Shown here one piece after another: positions 5,310 to 25,282 of a DNA stretch of 25,282 nt (positions are counted from its first letter, which is position 1; the number at the start of each line of letters is the position of its first letter). Source of the stretch: a virus; IMG/VR virus record IMGVR_UViG_3300025587_000227, positions 1 through 25,282 of that record; one strand, written 5' to 3'. A model generated the notes under the pieces. That model was given only the letters and a program-made list of their open reading frames with translations. It had not been told where the DNA came from and did not search any database. The position numbers were made by a program, and so were the translations under genes.

Positions 5310-8300
5310 CTCACCCCCCTCACATATCCGCGGCCATACAGGTAGGGGAGGATACCTTGCCTGTTCAATTCATCACACATATTCTCCTTCACCTTGTTCG
5401 TGATCTTCCTCGTCATCGCCTCGACGTCAACATCATCCTCCACCCTGTCTATTGACACATTGGTGTTTATCTCTATGTTTATGTTCTGTGAGGTGGGGGT
5501 TCCTGTGGTTAAGTAGGAGGGTGGGAGGAAGTTTGGCTGCCCGAGGCTTGAGATTGTGTTGGGGATTGTCGCCGCCAGGCCTTCATTGAAGTGTCTCCCG
5601 AGGAGGAAACCATACTCCCTCATCGCATCATAGGTTAGGGTGGATAATGGGCCCTCCTTGGGGGGTGACGATGGGAGTAGTCGCCTGATCTTAGCGAGGA
5701 TATTGTTCAGGTTGGGGAGGGCGGACCTTATCCCCTCAGCGAGGTTGTGGATGAAGCGTGCCCCCCACGCTCTGAAACTGGATGCTATCCCACTGAAGTT
5801 AGGGAGGGGGAGGCGTGGCCATTTGAATGACTTGAACGAGGATGACACGGCACTCTTAAATTTGGACCATGCTGATTTCATAAGCCCTGCGAAGTCTGGT
5901 AGTTTGATGTTGGGAAGGTTTGGCCATCTGAATGATTTGAAGGCTGAGCGGACCCACGCCTTGAACTGCTCCCATTTACTCCGTATGCCTCCCACTATAT
6001 CAGGGACCTTAATAGGGGGTAAGCTCGGCCATTTAAAGGAGGGGATGTGACTGTACACCCACGCCTTGAACTGCTCCCATTTACTCCGTATGCCTCCCAC
6101 TATATCAGGGACCTTAATAGGGGGTAAGCTCGGCCATTTAAAGGAGGGGATGTGACTGTACACCCACGCCTTGAACTGCTCCCATTTACTCCGTATGCCT
6201 CCCACTATATCAGGGACCTTAATAGGGGGTAAGCTCGGCCATTTAAAGGAGGGGATGTGACTGTACACCCACGCCTTGAAATCACTCCACATCTGACTGA
6301 ACCCTTCTTTAAGGTATCTTGCAGGGTCCTTGAAGAAGTTCTCAACTTCACGCCTGAACGGTTCCTGGATGTACACTCTGGCATTCTCGAGGAGTGTGTT
6401 CTTCGCTTTTTCCCACTCTTCAGGTCCCATGATGGCCTTGAATATTGTTTCTGGGGAGAAGATCCTCCTTAACCATTCAGGGTAACTGTACTCTGCAACA
6501 GGACTGACGAATTTGAATGGATCCTCGAGGATGTCCCTCAAGTACTCTTTAAAGTTGTAGAGGATGTCTGCTGTTTGCAGCGCCACCCCGACGCCTTCCC
6601 CCACAGCCTTCACGAGAGTTCTCCCTATACTGGTACCGAACCTAGGAAGAATACTGCTGGCAGCATCATCAAGGTTCGTGCCGAGACGAGTGATTACCCC
6701 GTCAACATCTAGCCTATCAAAGGCTCTACCACCTTCATCCCTGAGCAGATTCTTTAATCGATCCCAGAGTTTCCGGGCCACCCCCCTCAGAGAGTCCTCC
6801 ATCTTATTCAAAAATTTCTGAACAAAATCATCCGTCTTGAGACGGGTGATAGCATCATCCAAGGCATTTTTCAATGCGTCTTTCACGGATTCAGCGAATC
6901 CTGTTAGTCTCCCCCTCCCCCTGCTAACATTCTTAAGTGAATCCTCCAGGACGTCCCATATCTTTGTACTCACTATCTTCAGGGCTTTTTTAACTAAGTC
7001 GTAGATATCCTTACCGATGACAAAGAATAGGATTTGCCCTACATACCCAGCTCCCTCCAGGAAAGTATTAATATCATCAATAAACTTGTCAAGATTCCCT
7101 TTTATCTCTGTGAGGATATCACGGTGCGCAGCGGCTGACTCACCCAGCGCCTTGTTTGTCCTCTTAGCATTCTCTTCACTCACATCCCCCAATTCATCCC
7201 ATTTATCAGCAACCTCTGCAAGAGCCGGGCCGGCCTTCTCACCGAAGATTTCAGTAGCCACTCGGGCTCTCTCCGCATCATCAGGTATGGTGCTCAAGTA
7301 TGTGAGGAATTCCTCCAGCACCTCATTGAAGCTCTTCAGGTTCCCTGATGAGTCTCTAACACTTATCCCGACTTTCTCCAGTTTCTTACCATACTCCTCC
7401 ACCACATCGGAGCCTTCCTTCCATTCACGTCCGATGTTTCCGAGTTCTCTGCCCAGCTGCCTGATAACCCTTGTCCCCCGTGGCCCTAGGCTGGCGATGA
7501 TCTTCGCTGTGGTGTCAGCTGACACCCCCGCTTGGTCCAGGTAGTACCCTGCACGGTCAACCATTCCGAGAAACTCGGTGAAGCTGGAGAACCCTGACCG
7601 TCTCCAGAGTTCTAAGAGTTTATGGGTGAGGCCCTCACTCTCCGCGACTGTGATGTTAAAGTCCCTGAAAACCCTTGCAAGGGTGAGTGTTACTGTGGAT
7701 GCATCCTCCCCACTCCTTGCGACTGCTGTGAGTGCCGCCTTATAGTATCCGATGGTGAGTGTGTAGTCACGTGTGTATGATGCGAGGGTGTACATTATCG
7801 TAGCCCCACCCTTCATCCCGAGGGTGTAGTTATAGTTCGCCTCGATCGTTTTCTCCAGTTCTTTCCTCTGCTCCCTCGTGGCGTTTGTAAGGACGGCTGT
7901 CTGATCTATGAGCTTCCCATAGTTCAGGGCTGACGTTATACCTTGGTAGCTCATGTATGCCCCTAACAATCCCATGACCTGGGATTCCAGGTCTGAGACT
8001 GCGGATGTGATGCCGGATAGCCTGTCCTCCGCTTCCTCAATACCCTCCGTGTTAACCTCAACGTTCACTTCCTGGCCGTCTGCTTCCTTGATACTATGTT
8101 TCAGTTCATCTACCCCTTCAGCCCCTTCAACTGAAACCTCCACGGTTGTGGAGTATTCTCTCTCCAGATCATCCAGTACATGGTTAAAGTCTTTGATGTC
8201 ATCCATGCCCTCCACTTCAGCGTGCACTGTGGTGGTGATGTCATTGGGGATTTCATGGATTGATTTGATGATGGATTCTATGATGGTTGTGGCGTTATCA

Positions 8301-16578: not shown

Positions 16579-17882
16579 GTTCTCACTCCTCTGGGACTGG
16601 AGATGTATATCCTCCTGTTCCTCATGGATGCCTCAGTAAGGGTATTAAAGGCCCCTGATGCAGCGTCCACCTGGTCATCATGCACCCCCTGTGTGGGGAA
16701 GGCCTCCAGTTCTCTGAGGAAATCATAGACCCATATGCCCCGGAGGATTGTCACGTTCCCGGCTTCTACTTGTGCGCTGAAAGCTCTGGCCCGTTCCACT
16801 TTGTTCCTGGTGGGCCTGTCCCCTTTGATGTCATATCCCTTGAGGAGGCGTGTGAAATGGTTGATGATCATTTTCCCACTACTCCCCCCTTCCTCCTCGA
16901 TTCTTATCATCGTACCTTTCCCATCCTCGTGGGCTGTCTGGATTATGGTTTCCTCAACCTCCTTCGGGGTTCCCCTCAGCCGCTTAACGTCCAGGATGTG
17001 ATATGTGTCATCCTGGAGTCCCATAAGGCACCCTACTGTCCAGTCAGGGTCCGTGTTCATCTGGGTTGGGGGCGTGGCTGCAAGGTCCCAGTACCTACAT
17101 TTCAACTGCACTGATGGGGGGTTGTCTATGATCCTAAACCATTCCCTCCTAAAGAGACCTCCTGTGATTGAAGCATCCCAGTCCCCCTCCATCAGTTGCC
17201 TCCTTGTGATCGGATCCAGCTTCTTAAGCGATTCTTCGTAGGATACGTCCAAATGGGGGTTGTCCTTGTACCTGGCGGGGATAAATGGTCGGCCACCTTC
17301 AATGAATCGTTTCCTGACCCATTCGAGACCGGGCCCGGTGGGGTTGGTGGCGGCGCGCATCCGGAGAGGTACAGGGTTTTCCCCGGTTTTCCTGAGGCGG
17401 CTGAACAGGAAAAGGTACTGTGACTCTGTGAACTCTGTAAGCTCGTCGAAAGCAACAAGTTGAAATTCGCTGGACTGGTAACGGTACTTGTCACGCTCTG
17501 AATCTATATGGCCAAATGTGAGGGTGGCGCCTGATGGGAACCTCCATGTCTTCTTCTCCGCGTTCCACTCAGCATCAGTACTGTGGAGCCACTGGCACGC
17601 GCGGTCCATCAGGCCCCCAGGAAGAGCTAATTCCGGGTAATTCCGTCTGAGCACCAATGCATGATAATCAGGGAGGTCCACATATTGGAGCGCTGCCATG
17701 AGGAGAGCCTCGGATTTCCCTCCTCCTGCCGCGCCGCCATAAAGAACCTCCCGGTCATGAGAGGTGAGAAATATGGCTTGTTTGGGGGTAGGCTCAGTGG
17801 GGATGTATGGGTTTTCAAGGACGCTCCAACGTAAGAAATCAAGATCCTCCTCAGATAGTCTTTTATTTGTCGTTGAAAGCAC
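16575..17882 (-). CDS. terL: Terminase large subunit
   Basis: Walker A GGAAGGGKS, Walker B VAFDELTEF, ATNP coupling motif, nuclease motifs WDLAAT and HDDQVDA. Confidence 0.95.
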   Translation of the reverse strand: MLSTTNKRLSEEDLDFLRWSVLENPYIPTEPTPKQAIFLTSHDREVLYGGAAGGGKSEALLMAALQYVDLPDYHALVLRRNYPELALPGGLMDRACQWLHSTDAEWNAEKKTWRFPSGATLTFGHIDSERDKYRYQSSEFQLVAFDELTEFTESQYLFLFSRLRKTGENPVPLRMRAATNPTGPGLEWVRKRFIEGGRPFIPARYKDNPHLDVSYEESLKKLDPITRRQLMEGDWDASITGGLFRREWFRIIDNPPSVQLKCRYWDLAATPPTQMNTDPDWTVGCLMGLQDDTYHILDVKRLRGTPKEVEETIIQTAHEDGKGTMIRIEEEGGSSGKMIINHFTRLLKGYDIKGDRPTRNKVERARAFSAQVEAGNVTILRGIWVYDFLRELEAFPTQGVHDDQVDAASGAFNTLTEASMRNRRIYISSPRGVRT

Positions 17883-18804: not shown

Positions 18805-18951
18805 TCATCCCCCCCTCTTGTGGGTTAGGTACCCTGCAATTGCGCCGAGTGCTACTGATGCTATTTCAGTCATGTTTTTTGTCATGGCTGTTATTGTGAT
18901 GATTGTGAGGCATATGATCCCTATTGTTTCCACTCCCAGGTTGTCTTTCAT
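18805..18951 (-). CDS. 48-aa two-TM protein, holin-like (MKDNLGVETIGIICLTIITITAMTKNMTEIASVALGAIAGYLTHKRGG); not in the ORF track
   Basis: RBS AGGGGGA, two hydrophobic segments, basic C-terminus; first gene of the late minus-strand block. Confidence 0.7.
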   Translation of the reverse strand: MKDNLGVETIGIICLTIITITAMTKNMTEIASVALGAIAGYLTHKRGG

Positions 18952-18961
18952 AGTATCCCCC

Positions 18962-18979
18962 TTTCAATAATTATTGTAA
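18962..18979. promoter_or_regulatory. Palindrome TT-T-CAATAATTATTG-T-AA, candidate operator before the late block
   Basis: Perfect 12-bp palindrome at 18965-18976 with extra paired flanks, in the divergent intergenic region. Confidence 0.4.
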
Positions 18980-19619: not shown

Positions 19620-19720
19620 CCATGTATATAGAATGATTTCAAGTGTAATGAGAAAGAGAATAATTTGACCCATGTATATATATATATATCAAAATTTTTT
19701 TTGTATATATATATATACAA
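19620..19720. repeat. AT-rich element: CCATGTATATA x2, two (TA)7 tracts, T-tract, 20-bp perfect palindrome
   Basis: CCATGTATATA at 19620 and 19670; (TA)7 at 19675-19688 and 19704-19717; TTGTATATATATATATACAA at 19701-19720. Confidence 0.85.
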
Positions 19721-19759
19721 GGGGTGAGGGGTTGTCTCCCCCAATACTCCTGAAGTTCA

Positions 19760-22757: not shown

Positions 22758-23047
22758 CTGTATCCCTCCATCTGGATGTACTCACCATCTCTGTTCATGC
22801 CTCTCACCACTGCAAGGTACCCCCTCCGCACGTTCTCTTCTGTGACTCGGAGGATGCCCTCTTCTCCTTTCAGGTAGGCTTTCATCCTCGCGTCCCATGC
22901 AGCGTCCTGTATGAGACGTAGGAGGATGGCTATGGATGCCTTTTCAAGTTCATCCATGCCTTCAGGGGAAAATTCGACTTGGAAGTTTTTTATGGTGTCT
23001 TTAGCCCATTCTTTCACGGCTTCTTCTCGCATCCTGATTTTTATCAT
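22754..23047 (-). CDS. Histone-fold protein B, 97 aa
   Basis: EFSPEGMDELEKASIAILLRLIQDAAWDARMK...RVTEENVRRGY fits the histone L1-alpha2-L2-alpha3 register. Confidence 0.7.
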   Translation of the reverse strand: MIKIRMREEAVKEWAKDTIKNFQVEFSPEGMDELEKASIAILLRLIQDAAWDARMKAYLKGEEGILRVTEENVRRGYLAVVRGMNRDGEYIQMEGYR

Positions 23048-23500
23048 TTACTCCCCCTCCATGAGTATTTCCCGGATTCTGTTGTACTCTTCCACTGATT
23101 CCTCATCCGTGTATGAGAGAATGTCAAGATAGCCGAGGTAAATGTGTTCTTCGTCTATGGTGATGTCATTCTGTGTTTCCCCGAGGTCCCTTGTGAAGTC
23201 TTGTATGTGTGCTGTCTGCCCGGCGCTTTCAAGGATGTTCCAGGCCAGACTGGAGAGGTATCTTTCGAGGGCGCGGATGGCCTCGGGAGTGATTCTCGCG
23301 TTTCTCTTGTTGCGGATGCCGAGGATCTGGTCGTGGACCATCTCCTCGAGTGGGGGTTTTCTGTTAATGATTTTCACGATGACTCTGTTGAGTTCATCGT
23401 ATTCTTCCCAGGCCTTTCTTGCTTCTTCTTCTCGTCCTTCTTTTTTTAGTGCCTGGTATTTTCTCCAGGCTTTCTCTTTTTTTGAGAGGATTGGTTTCAT
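23048..23500 (-). CDS. Histone-fold protein A with charged N-terminal extension, 150 aa; first early gene
   Basis: RITPEAIRALERYLSSLAWNILESAGQTAHIQ...TIDEEHIYLGY vs HMf-type [45 protein letters not shown]. Confidence 0.72.
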   Translation of the reverse strand: MKPILSKKEKAWRKYQALKKEGREEEARKAWEEYDELNRVIVKIINRKPPLEEMVHDQILGIRNKRNARITPEAIRALERYLSSLAWNILESAGQTAHIQDFTRDLGETQNDITIDEEHIYLGYLDILSYTDEESVEEYNRIREILMEGE

Positions 23501-23504
23501 GTCT

Positions 23505-23631
23505 GATCAACTCCTTTTCCTTTAGTAGTATATTCTATCTCTTAGTATATATTTTTTTTGGTATATTGTTATTTTGGTATGTTGTTATTTGAGAGGATAA
23601 ATATATAAGATATGCACACCAAGAATAAAAC
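23505..23631. promoter_or_regulatory. Divergent promoter region (early operon vs RHH gene) with four ~16-bp-spaced T(A/G)GTAT(A/G)T boxes
   Basis: Boxes at 23526, 23543, 23559, 23575; minus-strand A-run/ATATATA near 23545-23559; plus-strand AAATATATA near 23599-23607; RBS GGAGTTGA. Confidence 0.65.
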
Positions 23632-23808
23632 ATGAAAGAAAATGAAAAAATACATACAAGCATATACATAAACTCAAGAAAGTTCAAACTCTTCAAAGTA
23701 ATAGCGATGCTCAAATATGAGAAAAGCCCAATGACCTCCTCCTGGGAGGAAGCCATCGATCTTTTCATAAAACACAACAAAGAATACTTAGAACACCTTG
23801 AAATGTAA
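23632..23808 (+). CDS. 58-aa RHH protein, candidate repressor (MKENEKIHTSIYINSRKFKLFKVIAMLKYEKSPMTSSWEEAIDLFIKHNKEYLEHLEM); not in the ORF track
   Basis: Alternating beta strand HTSIYI, helix A, helix B SWEEAIDLFI; TATA about 25 nt upstream (leaderless); divergent from the lytic genes. Confidence 0.75.
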   Translation: MKENEKIHTSIYINSRKFKLFKVIAMLKYEKSPMTSSWEEAIDLFIKHNKEYLEHLEM

Positions 23809-23819
23809 TCCATGATCAA

Positions 23820-23990
23820 AAGCCCCCCACAACTCAATGTCTGATCAACTCCAAAACAGTTAGGGGGGCACCTATATATACAGCATGAATTCTACTATAC
23901 ATTGTATCCCCCTGGGATGCACCGCCTCAGGAGGGGGTCTTGTATTTTCTTGGTGGGCGTCAAGAATATACCCCCCATCCTGAGGCTTAA
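23820..23990 (+). ncRNA. Candidate multi-target antisense RNA locus with three hairpins
   Basis: Hairpins at 23822-23869, 23903-23921 and 23925-23985, each carrying a segment complementary to a viral translation start; internal TATATATA at 23873-23880. Confidence 0.5.
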
Positions 23991-24052
23991 CTAATGATAA
24001 TAAATATAAAATTAATAAGAATAGTGAAGGAGAGCATCAGAAAACTAAAGCA

Positions 24053-25261
24053 TTATCTTTCAAGTTTTTCCAGTATCTCCGGATGAGACGATATAAGATT
24101 ATACAACTTCTCAGTCTTCCTCACCCACTCTCTTAACTTCTCCTGAGACTCACGCAATTCTTTAATCTCATTCTCCTTCTCTTCCAGTTCTTTCACAATC
24201 TCACGAACCTCAGGGGCCATTACTCGTCTTGTAACAGTCTTCTCAAAAGTCAAAGATCGCATCCTTTTTCTGTATTCTCTTTCAAGGTGATCTATATTCA
24301 CTTTGAAATACGCCTCTGTGACTGGATTCACTTTATGACCAAGCAGCCAATCAATTGCCAGCTTATCCATTCCCTCCTTATAAAGGATGGTCGTGAAAAG
24401 CTTCCTAAGTTTGTGGGAAGTTAAACGACGATTACCCGCTGCATCCCTTCCAAGATAGAATCTGTCATTAAGACGATTGAAAATGTTAGCATAAGTGATC
24501 GGTTTGAGTCTATCTCCATTTTGAGTTGAAAATAGAGGCTGAGTCTCTTTTAAAGGTCCTCCATTTAATCGACGGTACCTTAGATAGTCAAGGATTTTTA
24601 TATTAGCCTCAGGAGTGCTGAAAGTAACATATGGCATTCCTGTCTTTACTCTATTTACCTTCCAAACTCCAACAATCTCTTCATCTTGTATGCGTTTTCT
24701 GGCATCCTCATAATCCTCTCCGAGGACATTGAAACCTATGGCCTTATTATAATCAACAACATTGAGTCTTCGAAGTTCCGCGGATCCCATCCCACTGGTG
24801 AGGTGCAGGAGGATCATGGCTTTTTCCCGTGGATGGGTGTTGTCCAGGACATTTTTGATCTCATGGAGATTTATAAGATCATCCATGGATTTATTTTCAG
24901 GTCGAATTTTGTATGTGATCTTTGGGGGGTCAATCTCATATTCATTGTATAGTGCTTTGATTTTGGAGATGTATAATCTGATAGTTGATCCTTTGACCCC
25001 CTGGTCTTGTAGGTGTTGAATGTATTTTAGGAAATATTGTCTGATCTTGCGTTTTCTTCTTTTAACCCCTGAATCTTCCTCTTTTTCCGCTTCTTCTATT
25101 AATTCTGTGATTGTTTTTCCTGTGACTTGTGAGTAGTGTTGTATTGCTGCAATGTATGTCTCTATAGTTTTTTCTTTTATGTTCCTGGAAAATATGAATT
25201 CTTGTAGGAGAGGGTCTTGGAGAAGTTCTTCTTTTGTTGGGTGTGTTTTCTTGGTGGGCAT
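24053..25261 (-). CDS. int: Tyrosine recombinase / integrase with C-terminal coiled coil (start ATG 25261, or 25282)
   Basis: N-terminal SAM-like domain (TIETY...Y), RVKTG Lys, SHKLRK (HxxR), LGH, AYF Tyr; box I reads SGMGSAEL. Confidence 0.92.
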   Translation of the reverse strand: MPTKKTHPTKEELLQDPLLQEFIFSRNIKEKTIETYIAAIQHYSQVTGKTITELIEEAEKEEDSGVKRRKRKIRQYFLKYIQHLQDQGVKGSTIRLYISKIKALYNEYEIDPPKITYKIRPENKSMDDLINLHEIKNVLDNTHPREKAMILLHLTSGMGSAELRRLNVVDYNKAIGFNVLGEDYEDARKRIQDEEIVGVWKVNRVKTGMPYVTFSTPEANIKILDYLRYRRLNGGPLKETQPLFSTQNGDRLKPITYANIFNRLNDRFYLGRDAAGNRRLTSHKLRKLFTTILYKEGMDKLAIDWLLGHKVNPVTEAYFKVNIDHLEREYRKRMRSLTFEKTVTRRVMAPEVREIVKELEEKENEIKELRESQEKLREWVRKTEKLYNLISSHPEILEKLER

Positions 25262-25282
25262 GGATGGTATGTATACTCGCAT

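What the first reader, a model, noticed from the sequence alone, without database searches (positions are those of the whole stretch)
23820..23990. Triple-hairpin locus antisense to the start codons of the first early gene, the first late gene and the integrase: candidate multiplexed sRNA lysogeny switch
Seen: the + strand just downstream of the RHH gene repeats three distant start regions of minus-strand genes, so its RNA would pair with their mRNAs. (1) 23837-23852 ATGTCTGATCAACTCC is identical to 23499-23514 (16/16; RBS through AU of histone-fold A) and sits wholly in the 23-nt loop of a hairpin (GCCCCCC 23822-28/GGGGGGC 23863-69; AACT/AGTT). (2) 23900-23913 CATTGTATCCCCCT vs 18949-18962 CATAGTATCCCCCT (13/14; RBS plus AUG of the 48-aa first late gene), in hairpin TGTATCCC-cct-GGGATGCA. 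(3) 23945-23960 vs 25246-25261 (15/16, covers the integrase AUG) plus 23929-23942 vs 25206-25219 (13/14); both differences give G-U wobbles only if the + strand is the guide, and the AUG-proximal seed lies in the loop of the 61-nt hairpin 23925-23985. Inference: a lysogen transcript (RHH mRNA 3' extension, or an sRNA from the TATATATA at 23873) blocks translation at three control points at once. I know of no such system described in archaeal viruses.
Basis: partly seen in the sequence, partly recalled or inferred. Interest (0 to 1): 0.9.

Follow-up and report, generated by a model that had tools for sequence, protein, structure and literature searches.

The report
Antisense hairpin behind provirus repressor gene
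In psiM2/psiM100-type proviruses of methane-producing archaea, a hairpin just after the small repressor gene shows in its loop an exact copy of the start region of the first lytic gene.

Summary
The window is a psiM100/psiM2 mosaic provirus. All three sequence matches exist at the stated coordinates.

**Match 1: strongly supported.** This is the hairpin 1 loop at 23837-23852 against the ORF31 start region at 23499-23514.
- Three immunity types have unrelated loop sequences. Each is identical to its own ORF31 ribosome-binding region (16, 24 and 10 nt).
- Every target begins at -14 from the start codon.
- Cross-type pairing is weak: -8.5 to -12 kcal/mol against -27 to -46 for each type's own target.
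- The one natural guide/target difference is a G-U wobble.

**Match 3: plausible but without covariation.** This is hairpin 3 against the integrase start. An 8-nt core sits at the hairpin apex and at the integrase start in every type, although the hairpin has three different stems. Only this type has the long match.

**Match 2: not supported.** This is hairpin 2 against the 48-aa ORF. The match is at chance level, lies inside a stem, and has no target in psiM100, which carries the identical hairpin.

**Other results.**
- The 58-aa plus-strand gene is a real ribbon-helix-helix (RHH) gene.
- The published minus-strand ORF30 is probably spurious.
- No transcript data could be obtained.

**Best reading.** The RHH mRNA 3' UTR carries a type-specific anti-ribosome-binding-site loop, analogous to the c4 RNA of phages P1 and P7. 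That would be new for archaeal viruses.

The parts
23632..23808 (+). 58-aa ribbon-helix-helix (RHH) gene. It is the only plus-strand gene in this region, divergent from ORF31 and convergent with the integrase gene.
   Evidence: The protein is conserved in psiM2 and the third type. Its frame has lower pN and higher pS than the antisense frame in all 6 pairs. AF2 model has pLDDT 75 with an extended N-terminus and two helices. Nearly all of the top 30 structural matches are RHH proteins, Z 4.3-6.1. PDB profile hits are SSV-RH E73 (E 0.009) and SIRV1 SvtR.
23822..23869 (+). Hairpin 1: a G/C clamp (23822-28/23863-69), an inner 4-bp helix, and a 23-nt open loop.
   Evidence: MFE folds at 37 and 65 C. 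An equivalent G/C-clamped hairpin lies 14-40 nt after the RHH stop codon in all three types.
23837..23852 (+). Anti-start-region segment in the hairpin 1 loop, complementary to ORF31 mRNA.
   Evidence: 16/16 identity with 23499-23514. No other copy in the window within 3 mismatches. Loop shuffles reached the observed match 0 times in 20000.
23499..23514 (-). Target: Shine-Dalgarno sequence through AU of the AUG of ORF31 (-14 to +2). ORF31 is the first gene of the lytic-direction operon (23048-23500).
   Evidence: The target begins at -14 in all three types, counted by me from the sequences.
23873..23880 (.). TATA-like box inside a 16-nt block conserved in all types. It is a candidate archaeal promoter that would place a plus-strand start at the foot of hairpin 2.
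   Evidence: Invariant block in alignment A2. The start position is inferred from the usual 26-27 nt TATA-to-start distance (my own knowledge). The direction is not shown.
23903..23921 (+). Hairpin 2: an 8-bp stem and a 3-nt loop. It has no convincing trans target.
   Evidence: Seven stem pairs are conserved, with one C-G to U-G change and variable loops. The identical hairpin in psiM100 has no target.
23925..23985 (+). Hairpin 3: a long stem with an apical stem-loop (23947-53/23960-66, loop 23954-59).
   Evidence: Three different stem sequences all pair, and the apical stem covaries.
23941..23960 (+). Segment complementary to the integrase start region. A second segment lies at 23929-23942.
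   Evidence: Highest ungapped helix in the whole window (score 40). The core TGGTGGGC is found at the hairpin apex and at the integrase start in every type.
25242..25261 (-). Integrase start region, with AUG at 25261-25259. The second matched stretch is 25206-25219.
24053..25261 (-). Tyrosine integrase gene (psiM100 ORF29).
   Evidence: Pfam PF00589, E 1.4e-12. 99.9% identical to psiM100.
18949..18962 (-). Start region of a 48-aa ORF.
23535..23837 (-). ORF30 as annotated in psiM100 (TTG start at 23837). Probably not a gene.
   Evidence: Annotation. It lies antisense to the conserved RHH frame and shares its wobble positions. Its starts differ in psiM2, the third type and here. It runs across the AT-rich promoter region.

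Best explanation
**Proposed mechanism.**
- Hairpin 1 is an RNA element in the 3' untranslated part of the RHH (candidate repressor) mRNA.
- Its open loop is complementary to the Shine-Dalgarno and start region of ORF31, the first gene of the lytic-direction operon, which is transcribed divergently.
- When the RHH gene is expressed, as presumed in the lysogen, its transcript pairs with any ORF31 mRNA and blocks ribosome binding.
- The loop and its target differ together between virus types, so this RNA arm would be type-specific: a second layer of immunity beside the RHH protein.
- Hairpins 2 and 3 form a second, conserved structured unit behind a TATA box. The hairpin 3 apex can pair with the first codons of the integrase mRNA. 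Any plus-strand transcript reaching this far would also be cis-antisense to the 3' end of the convergent integrase mRNA. This second part is less certain.
- Hairpin 2 has no late-gene target. It is more likely a 5' stem-loop or a protein site.

**What is shown and what is inferred.**
- Shown: the sequence identity, the predicted folds, and covariation across types.
- Inferred: that the plus-strand RNA exists, that pairing occurs, and that translation is blocked.
For: 1. In every psiM-like locus, the longest common substring between the 260 nt upstream and the 330 nt downstream of the RHH gene is the ORF31 start region and the hairpin 1 loop. It is 16 nt in the psiM100 type, 24 nt in a third type and 10 nt in the psiM2 type, and the three sequences are unrelated.
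2. In position-specific shuffles, the observed match was reached 0/20000, 0/20000 and 6/20000 times.
3. Specificity matrix: own pairs give -32.0, -45.9 and -26.6 kcal/mol, and foreign pairs -8.5 to -12.
4. All three targets start at -14 and cover the Shine-Dalgarno region, which is the place where a translational blocker must bind.
5. In all three types the copy sits in the loop of a G/C-clamped hairpin right after the RHH stop codon, with no run of five or more T in between.
6. The one natural variant with a guide/target difference (L032) has guide G opposite target U. That is a wobble only if the plus strand is the guide. The two differences in the integrase matches behave the same way.
7. 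The perfect duplexes stay stable at 65 C, -12.6 to -23.5 kcal/mol.
8. A variant that has lost hairpins 2-3 and the integrase gene still keeps hairpin 1 with its 24-nt copy (L029).
9. The putative RHH operator repeats in the divergent promoter region are not present in the loops.
10. For the integrase: the 8-nt core lies at the hairpin 3 apex in all types despite three different stems.
Against:
- Only three independent types exist in the collections searched.
- The hairpins fold equally well on either strand, so structure does not pick the strand.
- The match is only 10 nt in psiM2, and genome-wide that length is not an outlier.
- Relatives whose RHH gene is followed by a different gene lack the hairpin although they keep an ORF31-like start (L028, L030, L035).
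- A type-specific DNA-binding protein recognising both sites would also produce covariation.
- For the integrase there is no type specificity, and most of the seed is paired within the apical stem.
Confidence: 0.55

Rival explanations
1. DNA-level sites. The two copies are binding sites for a type-specific DNA-binding protein, either the RHH protein or the ORF31 product. One site overlaps the ORF31 leader and the other lies behind the RHH gene, perhaps allowing a repression loop. Covariation would then follow the protein's specificity.
For: The presumed DNA-reading N-terminal strand of the RHH protein differs between the three types while the helices are conserved. Immunity regions of temperate phages typically show repressor/operator covariation (established knowledge). 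The hairpins fold equally on both strands.
Against: The repeats do not resemble the tandem boxes in the divergent promoter region that fit RHH operators. The shared segments have no internal symmetry and very different lengths (10, 16, 24 nt), yet share the -14 boundary and Shine-Dalgarno coverage. Display in the loop of a G/C clamp has no obvious meaning for duplex DNA. The L032 difference is a wobble-compatible transition.
Confidence: 0.15
2. Minus-strand reading. The copy acts in minus-strand RNA as a second ribosome-binding region. It would be either the true start of ORF30 as annotated in psiM100, or a decoy for ribosomes or for a regulator of ORF31.
For: psiM100 ORF30 is annotated with a TTG start at 23837, directly after the copy. 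The antisense frame is open in all types. The third type's copy includes an ATG.
Against: In psiM2 the copy is followed by no start codon, and the annotated ORF30 starts 90 nt upstream at a GTG. The RHH frame has lower pN and higher pS than the ORF30 frame. The ORF30 product is Cys- and Phe-rich, has no family match, and runs across the promoter region.
Confidence: 0.08
3. One lysogen transcript blocks three start codons at once: ORF31, the 48-aa ORF at 18951, and the integrase.
For: All three matches exist and lie in direct orientation. Four near-perfect 14-mer diagonals are found against 0.75 expected.
Against: psiM100 carries the identical hairpin 2 but has no target within 2 mismatches, and the same holds for psiM2. 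The 13/14 match is below background in the helix scan. It lies inside the hairpin 2 stem. The 17.5-23 kb part of the window has no psiM100 or psiM2 counterpart, so this target cannot have co-evolved with the guide.
Confidence: 0.07
4. Leftovers without function. The copies are remnants of partial duplications of the ORF31 and integrase 5' ends. For the integrase this is an in-frame fragment with an internal deletion.
For: The hairpin 3 segment reads as the integrase N-terminus with a 24-nt in-frame deletion and its start codon lost. The integrase match shows no type specificity.
Against: Copies of 10-24 nt stay identical within each genome while being unalignable between genomes whose flanking genes are 55-68% identical. 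The 8-nt core survives in three otherwise unrelated versions of hairpin 3. Both observations imply selection.
Confidence: 0.05

Closest known systems
c4 antisense RNA of the immI region of coliphages P1 and P7 (Citron and Schuster 1992, listed in PMC8546580; details from my own knowledge)
   Same: Short antisense segments, displayed by a structured phage RNA, pair in trans with the ribosome-binding region of the first gene of a lytic or antirepressor operon. Guide and target differ together between heteroimmune relatives.
   Different: No sequence or structure homology: no Rfam family matched, C4 included. Here the element sits in the 3' UTR of a divergently transcribed repressor gene rather than upstream of the target in the same operon. 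The host is an archaeon. There is one contiguous 10-24 nt segment rather than two short ones. Processing and the downstream effect are unknown.
Tant antisense RNA of Halobacterium virus phiH (Stolt and Zillig 1993, cited in PMC6210493)
   Same: An antisense RNA in an archaeal tailed virus acts on an early lytic transcript in immune cells.
   Different: By my recollection of that paper, Tant is a cis-encoded counter-transcript fully complementary to its target. Here the guide lies 340 nt from the target, on the far side of a gene, and is a short segment displayed in a loop.
sRNA162 of Methanosarcina mazei (PMC3510493)
   Same: A trans-acting RNA in a methanogen masks a ribosome-binding site. 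That RNA also has two domains with separate cis and trans targets.
   Different: sRNA162 is a cellular sRNA, its pairing region is a single-stranded linker rather than a hairpin loop, and it has no link to virus immunity.
Dual-function RNAs and 3' UTR-derived sRNAs of bacteria (PMC12612679, PMC9731577)
   Same: One transcript both encodes a protein and carries a base-pairing regulator in its 3' part, and both act in one pathway.
   Different: Those cases are bacterial and mostly Hfq-dependent. None is a phage repressor mRNA, to my knowledge.
CI RNA immunity of satellite phage P4, and retroregulation of lambda int by sib (from my own knowledge; not checked in papers here)
   Same: P4: immunity is carried by a small RNA that pairs with repeated target sequences in lytic transcripts. 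sib: a hairpin beyond the int gene controls int expression after transcription.
   Different: P4 CI acts by transcription termination. sib acts in cis on the same RNA through RNase III. Neither matches the geometry here.

Membership tests
Trans-acting antisense RNA that blocks translation initiation (functional class) | Contiguous complementarity to the Shine-Dalgarno and start codon region of the target mRNA | tested here: met
   16/16 in the window, 24/24 and 10/10 in the other types, all covering -14 to -5.
Trans-acting antisense RNA that blocks translation initiation (functional class) | Guide and target covary between relatives | tested here: met
   Three types with unrelated sequences and a diagonal specificity matrix. 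One G-U-compatible variant. This is met for ORF31 only. It is not met for the integrase or for the 48-aa ORF.
Trans-acting antisense RNA that blocks translation initiation (functional class) | The pairing segment is accessible in the predicted structure | tested here: met
   The whole 16-mer lies in the 23-nt loop at 37 and 65 C. It is only partly accessible in hairpin 3, and not in hairpin 2.
Trans-acting antisense RNA that blocks translation initiation (functional class) | The guide strand is transcribed and pairs with the target in vivo | not testable with these tools
The one recent psiM2 paper has no transcriptome.
Rfam C4 antisense RNA family, or any other curated RNA family | Match to a covariance model | tested here: not met
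   cmscan of 23400-24200 on both strands at E up to 10 gave only sub-threshold noise, the best being 22 bits against a 45-bit cut-off.
Ribbon-helix-helix (Arc/MetJ/CopG) superfamily, for the 58-aa protein | Strand-helix-helix fold | tested here: met
   The AF2 model has an extended N-terminus plus helices at 15-29 and 33-48. Nearly all of the top 30 VIA-align rows are RHH proteins: Rv0298, TacA, NikR, AmrZ, SvtR, PutA, Arc, omega; Z 4.3-6.1. Z is modest and no Pfam model matched.
Ribbon-helix-helix (Arc/MetJ/CopG) superfamily, for the 58-aa protein | Dimer that binds repeated operator boxes | not tested
Tyrosine recombinase (phage integrase) | PF00589 catalytic domain | tested here: met
   E 1.4e-12, 48.2 bits against a 27.1-bit cut-off.

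The most novel reading that the evidence does not exclude
The repressor mRNA of psiM-type methanogen viruses is a dual-function RNA. It encodes the RHH protein, and its 3' part carries loop-displayed guides that silence the first lytic gene in a type-specific way and also the integrase. This would be the first trans-acting RNA immunity determinant in an archaeal virus, and one that could be reprogrammed by changing one loop.
Probability: 0.3. Interest if true: 0.78.

Novelty: new variant of a known kind. Interest (0 to 1): 0.63.

Why it matters
- **The gap.** How tailed archaeal viruses hold lysogeny and set immunity specificity is almost unknown. For methanogen viruses there is no regulatory model at all.
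- **What this offers.** A short, type-specific guide/target pair gives a concrete hypothesis that compensatory mutations can test. It also gives a molecular marker for immunity groups in psiM-like proviruses.
- **Parallel with bacteria.** It would show that RNA-based immunity, known from P1/P7 and P4, arose in archaeal viruses too.
- **Annotation.** The RHH gene replaces the published ORF30 in psiM2 and psiM100.
- **Practical use.** Methanothermobacter is used for biomethanation, so an understood and portable translational off-switch would be useful.

Tried and rejected
- **Rfam.** Nothing near threshold.
- **RNAduplex scan of the whole 185-nt guide against all 50-nt target windows.** It was uninformative, because long gapped G/C pairings dominate and the control strand scores as high. 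I replaced it with an ungapped helix scan.
- **Strand choice from fold energy or G-U counts.** There was no asymmetry.
- **Coding potential of the hairpin region.** The small plus-strand ORFs over hairpins 2-3 are read in different frames in psiM2 and in the window, and the ORF is cut short in L012. Coding was rejected.
- **C/D-box sRNA reading of hairpin 1.** The box-like motifs are not conserved in the other types, so I rejected it by inspection.
- **attP.** The psiM100 att core is an AT-rich 17-mer upstream of the integrase gene, unrelated to the hairpins.
- **Bacterial-type terminator.** There is no conserved T run after hairpin 1 on either strand.
- **Deletion products between the two direct copies.** None were found in viral contigs. 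This is not informative.
- **More immunity types.** I searched with the RHH profile in viral, genome and metagenome contigs and in family genomes, and with the conserved TATA block. No fourth hairpin-bearing type turned up.
- **Foldseek on the RHH model.** No significant hit. VIA-align was then used.
- **Complex prediction.** Not used, because no protein-protein claim is made.

Full report
**What the window is.**
- It is an IMG/VR provirus record of 25282 nt.
- Positions 23043-25282 are 99.9% identical to the Methanothermobacter wolfeii provirus psiM100.
- Other parts are nearer to psiM2, and 17.5-23 kb matches neither at the DNA level.
- Almost all genes lie on the minus strand.
- Around the finding, reading along the minus strand, the order is: integrase (25261-24053), the hairpin locus, a small plus-strand gene (23632-23808), then ORF31 (23500-23048) at the head of the lytic-direction genes.

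**The small gene.**
- The psiM100 and psiM2 records annotate a minus-strand ORF30 here.
- The plus-strand 58-aa frame is conserved as a protein in psiM2 and in a third type, at 54-65% identity with an invariant helical core.
- It has lower nonsynonymous and higher synonymous divergence than the ORF30 frame in all six pairs.
- Its model has the strand-helix-helix layout.
- Its structural neighbours are almost all ribbon-helix-helix (RHH) proteins, at Z 4.3-6.1. A PDB profile search gave the viral RHH proteins E73 and SvtR.
- ORF30 starts at a different place in each type.
- An AT-rich divergent promoter region with tandem boxes lies between the RHH gene and ORF31, as another note of this scan also says (e1-5805155).

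**The observation.**
- Against dinucleotide shuffles, a 16-nt exact direct match is rare (1 in 2000).
- A single 13/14 match is ordinary (53% of shuffles).
- Four such diagonals against 0.75 expected is unusual.
- In an ungapped helix scan of the whole minus-strand RNA, the integrase start, the ORF31 start and the second integrase stretch are the top three. They stand slightly above background. The hairpin 2 match does not.

**The key result: target 1.** Protein and DNA searches brought in psiM100, psiM2 and a third group from bioreactor and hot-spring metagenomes and MAGs.
- In each locus, the longest substring shared between the regions upstream and downstream of the RHH gene is the same pair of places: the ORF31 start region and the loop of the hairpin that follows the RHH stop codon.
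- The shared string is 16 nt here, 24 nt in the third type and 10 nt in psiM2. The three strings are unrelated.
- Loop shuffles reach these lengths 0, 0 and 6 times in 20000.
- Each loop pairs strongly only with its own start region.
- All targets begin at -14 and cover the Shine-Dalgarno region.
- One genome (L032) differs at a single position, with guide G opposite target U. That keeps pairing only if the plus strand is the guide.
- A variant that lost hairpins 2-3 and the integrase gene, by a deletion between two TATA-like runs, keeps hairpin 1 (L029).
- Segments this short cannot stay identical within genomes, while diverging completely between them, without selection on the match.

**RNA or DNA?** The folds are equally good on both strands, so folding does not decide.
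- For RNA pairing:
  - the copy is displayed in an open loop clamped by G/C pairs;
  - it lies immediately inside the RHH transcription unit with no strong T run before it;
  - the targets share the -14 boundary and Shine-Dalgarno coverage despite very different lengths;
  - the natural difference is wobble-compatible;
  - the copies do not resemble the operator-like boxes.
- For a DNA-level site:
  - the RHH N-terminal strand differs between types, so a protein with type-specific reading exists.
- My odds are about 0.55 for RNA pairing and 0.15 for DNA sites.

**Target 3, the integrase.**
- The apex of hairpin 3 and the integrase start share an 8-nt core in every type. No further exact copy of the core lies near either site; the window has one more at 16808. 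This holds although hairpin 3 exists in three versions with different stems that all pair, and with a covarying apical stem.
- The integrase start is itself conserved (Met-Pro-Thr-Lys), so covariation cannot be seen. The cross-type matrix is flat.
- Only the psiM100 type has the long bipartite match. It also reads as an in-frame fragment of the integrase N-terminus.
- Most of the seed is paired in the apical stem.
- I rate a trans effect on the integrase at roughly 0.35. Any plus-strand RNA reaching this far would in any case be cis-antisense to the 3' end of the convergent integrase mRNA.

**Target 2, the 48-aa ORF.** I reject this link.
- The start region is real.
- The match is at chance level, and the 'guide' is the 5' arm of the hairpin 2 stem.
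- psiM100 has the same hairpin 2 but different early and late-leader genes, and it has no target within two mismatches. psiM2 has none for its own version either.
- The hairpin 2 stem is conserved with variable loops. It lies about 22-26 nt after a conserved TATA block, which fits a 5' stem-loop of a separate small RNA or an operator at a start site. The promoter direction is inferred, not shown.

**Comparison with what is known.**
- No Rfam family matches.
- Functionally the closest is the c4 RNA of P1/P7, with its loop-displayed guides, its ribosome-binding-site target and guide/target covariation between heteroimmune phages (reference list of PMC8546580; details from my own knowledge).
- Antisense control in an archaeal virus was first described for phiH (PMC6210493). 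By my recollection that RNA is a cis counter-transcript.
- Masking of a ribosome-binding site by a trans sRNA is shown in Methanosarcina (PMC3510493).
- Dual-function mRNAs are known in bacteria (PMC12612679).
- The combination here is not described in the papers I could search: an archaeal virus, a repressor 3' UTR, and a trans-acting loop guide with type specificity. The recent psiM2 preprint has no transcript data.

**Limits.**
- The evidence is computational only.
- There are three independent types.
- There is no expression data.
- The RHH protein's role as the lysogeny repressor is itself inferred.
- The scan has not noted this element on other DNA.

Noticed in passing
23535-23837 (-), and psiM2 L002 659-1033: ORF30 of the published psiM100 and psiM2 annotations is probably an antisense artefact of the conserved 58-aa RHH gene on the other strand. 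The public records likely need correction.
   Followed up: yes
L029 (G001:C47), about 60-80 nt after the RHH stop: A Methanothermobacter MAG carries a variant in which everything from the TATA block after hairpin 1 to the integrase promoter region is deleted, that is hairpins 2-3 and the integrase gene. The junction lies at two TATAT runs. Hairpin 1 is intact.
   Followed up: partly
L028 1-720; L030; L035: Relatives whose RHH gene is followed by a different gene have no hairpin module. G004 contig 4 has two RHH paralogues 4 kb apart (L032 and L035). Behind the RHH gene, L030 and L035 carry perfect palindromes containing TGTACA.
   Followed up: partly
24020-24052, and alignment A2 columns 270-310: A block just beyond the integrase stop codon is conserved in all types, including L012 whose hairpin 3 differs. 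It may be the integrase terminator or another signal.
   Followed up: no
L012/L021 against the window and psiM2: Module shuffling. Hairpin 1 travels with the RHH/ORF31-start cassette, and hairpins 2-3 travel with the integrase 3' part. The conserved TATA block lies at the boundary and may act as a recombination joint.
   Followed up: partly
438-929: A perfect tandem duplication of 246 nt lies inside the pei (pseudomurein endoisopeptidase) gene region. It matches psiM2 sequence that is present there once.
   Followed up: no
5952-6280: Three overlapping 119-nt direct repeats at 105-nt spacing lie in the tape-measure-like gene, as psiM2 and psiM100 annotate for ORF21.
   Followed up: no
19638-19754: A large imperfect palindrome with (TA)n runs. 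Part of it is also complementary to 23873-23902 (I3), which is probably only TA-run similarity.
   Followed up: no
23837-23846: The hairpin 1 loop resembles the 3' end of 16S rRNA (the anti-Shine-Dalgarno sequence), as expected for a sequence that must pair with a Shine-Dalgarno region. The ORF31 Shine-Dalgarno here is a 9 of 10 match to the extended consensus, which I recalled from memory and did not check against the host rRNA.
   Followed up: no
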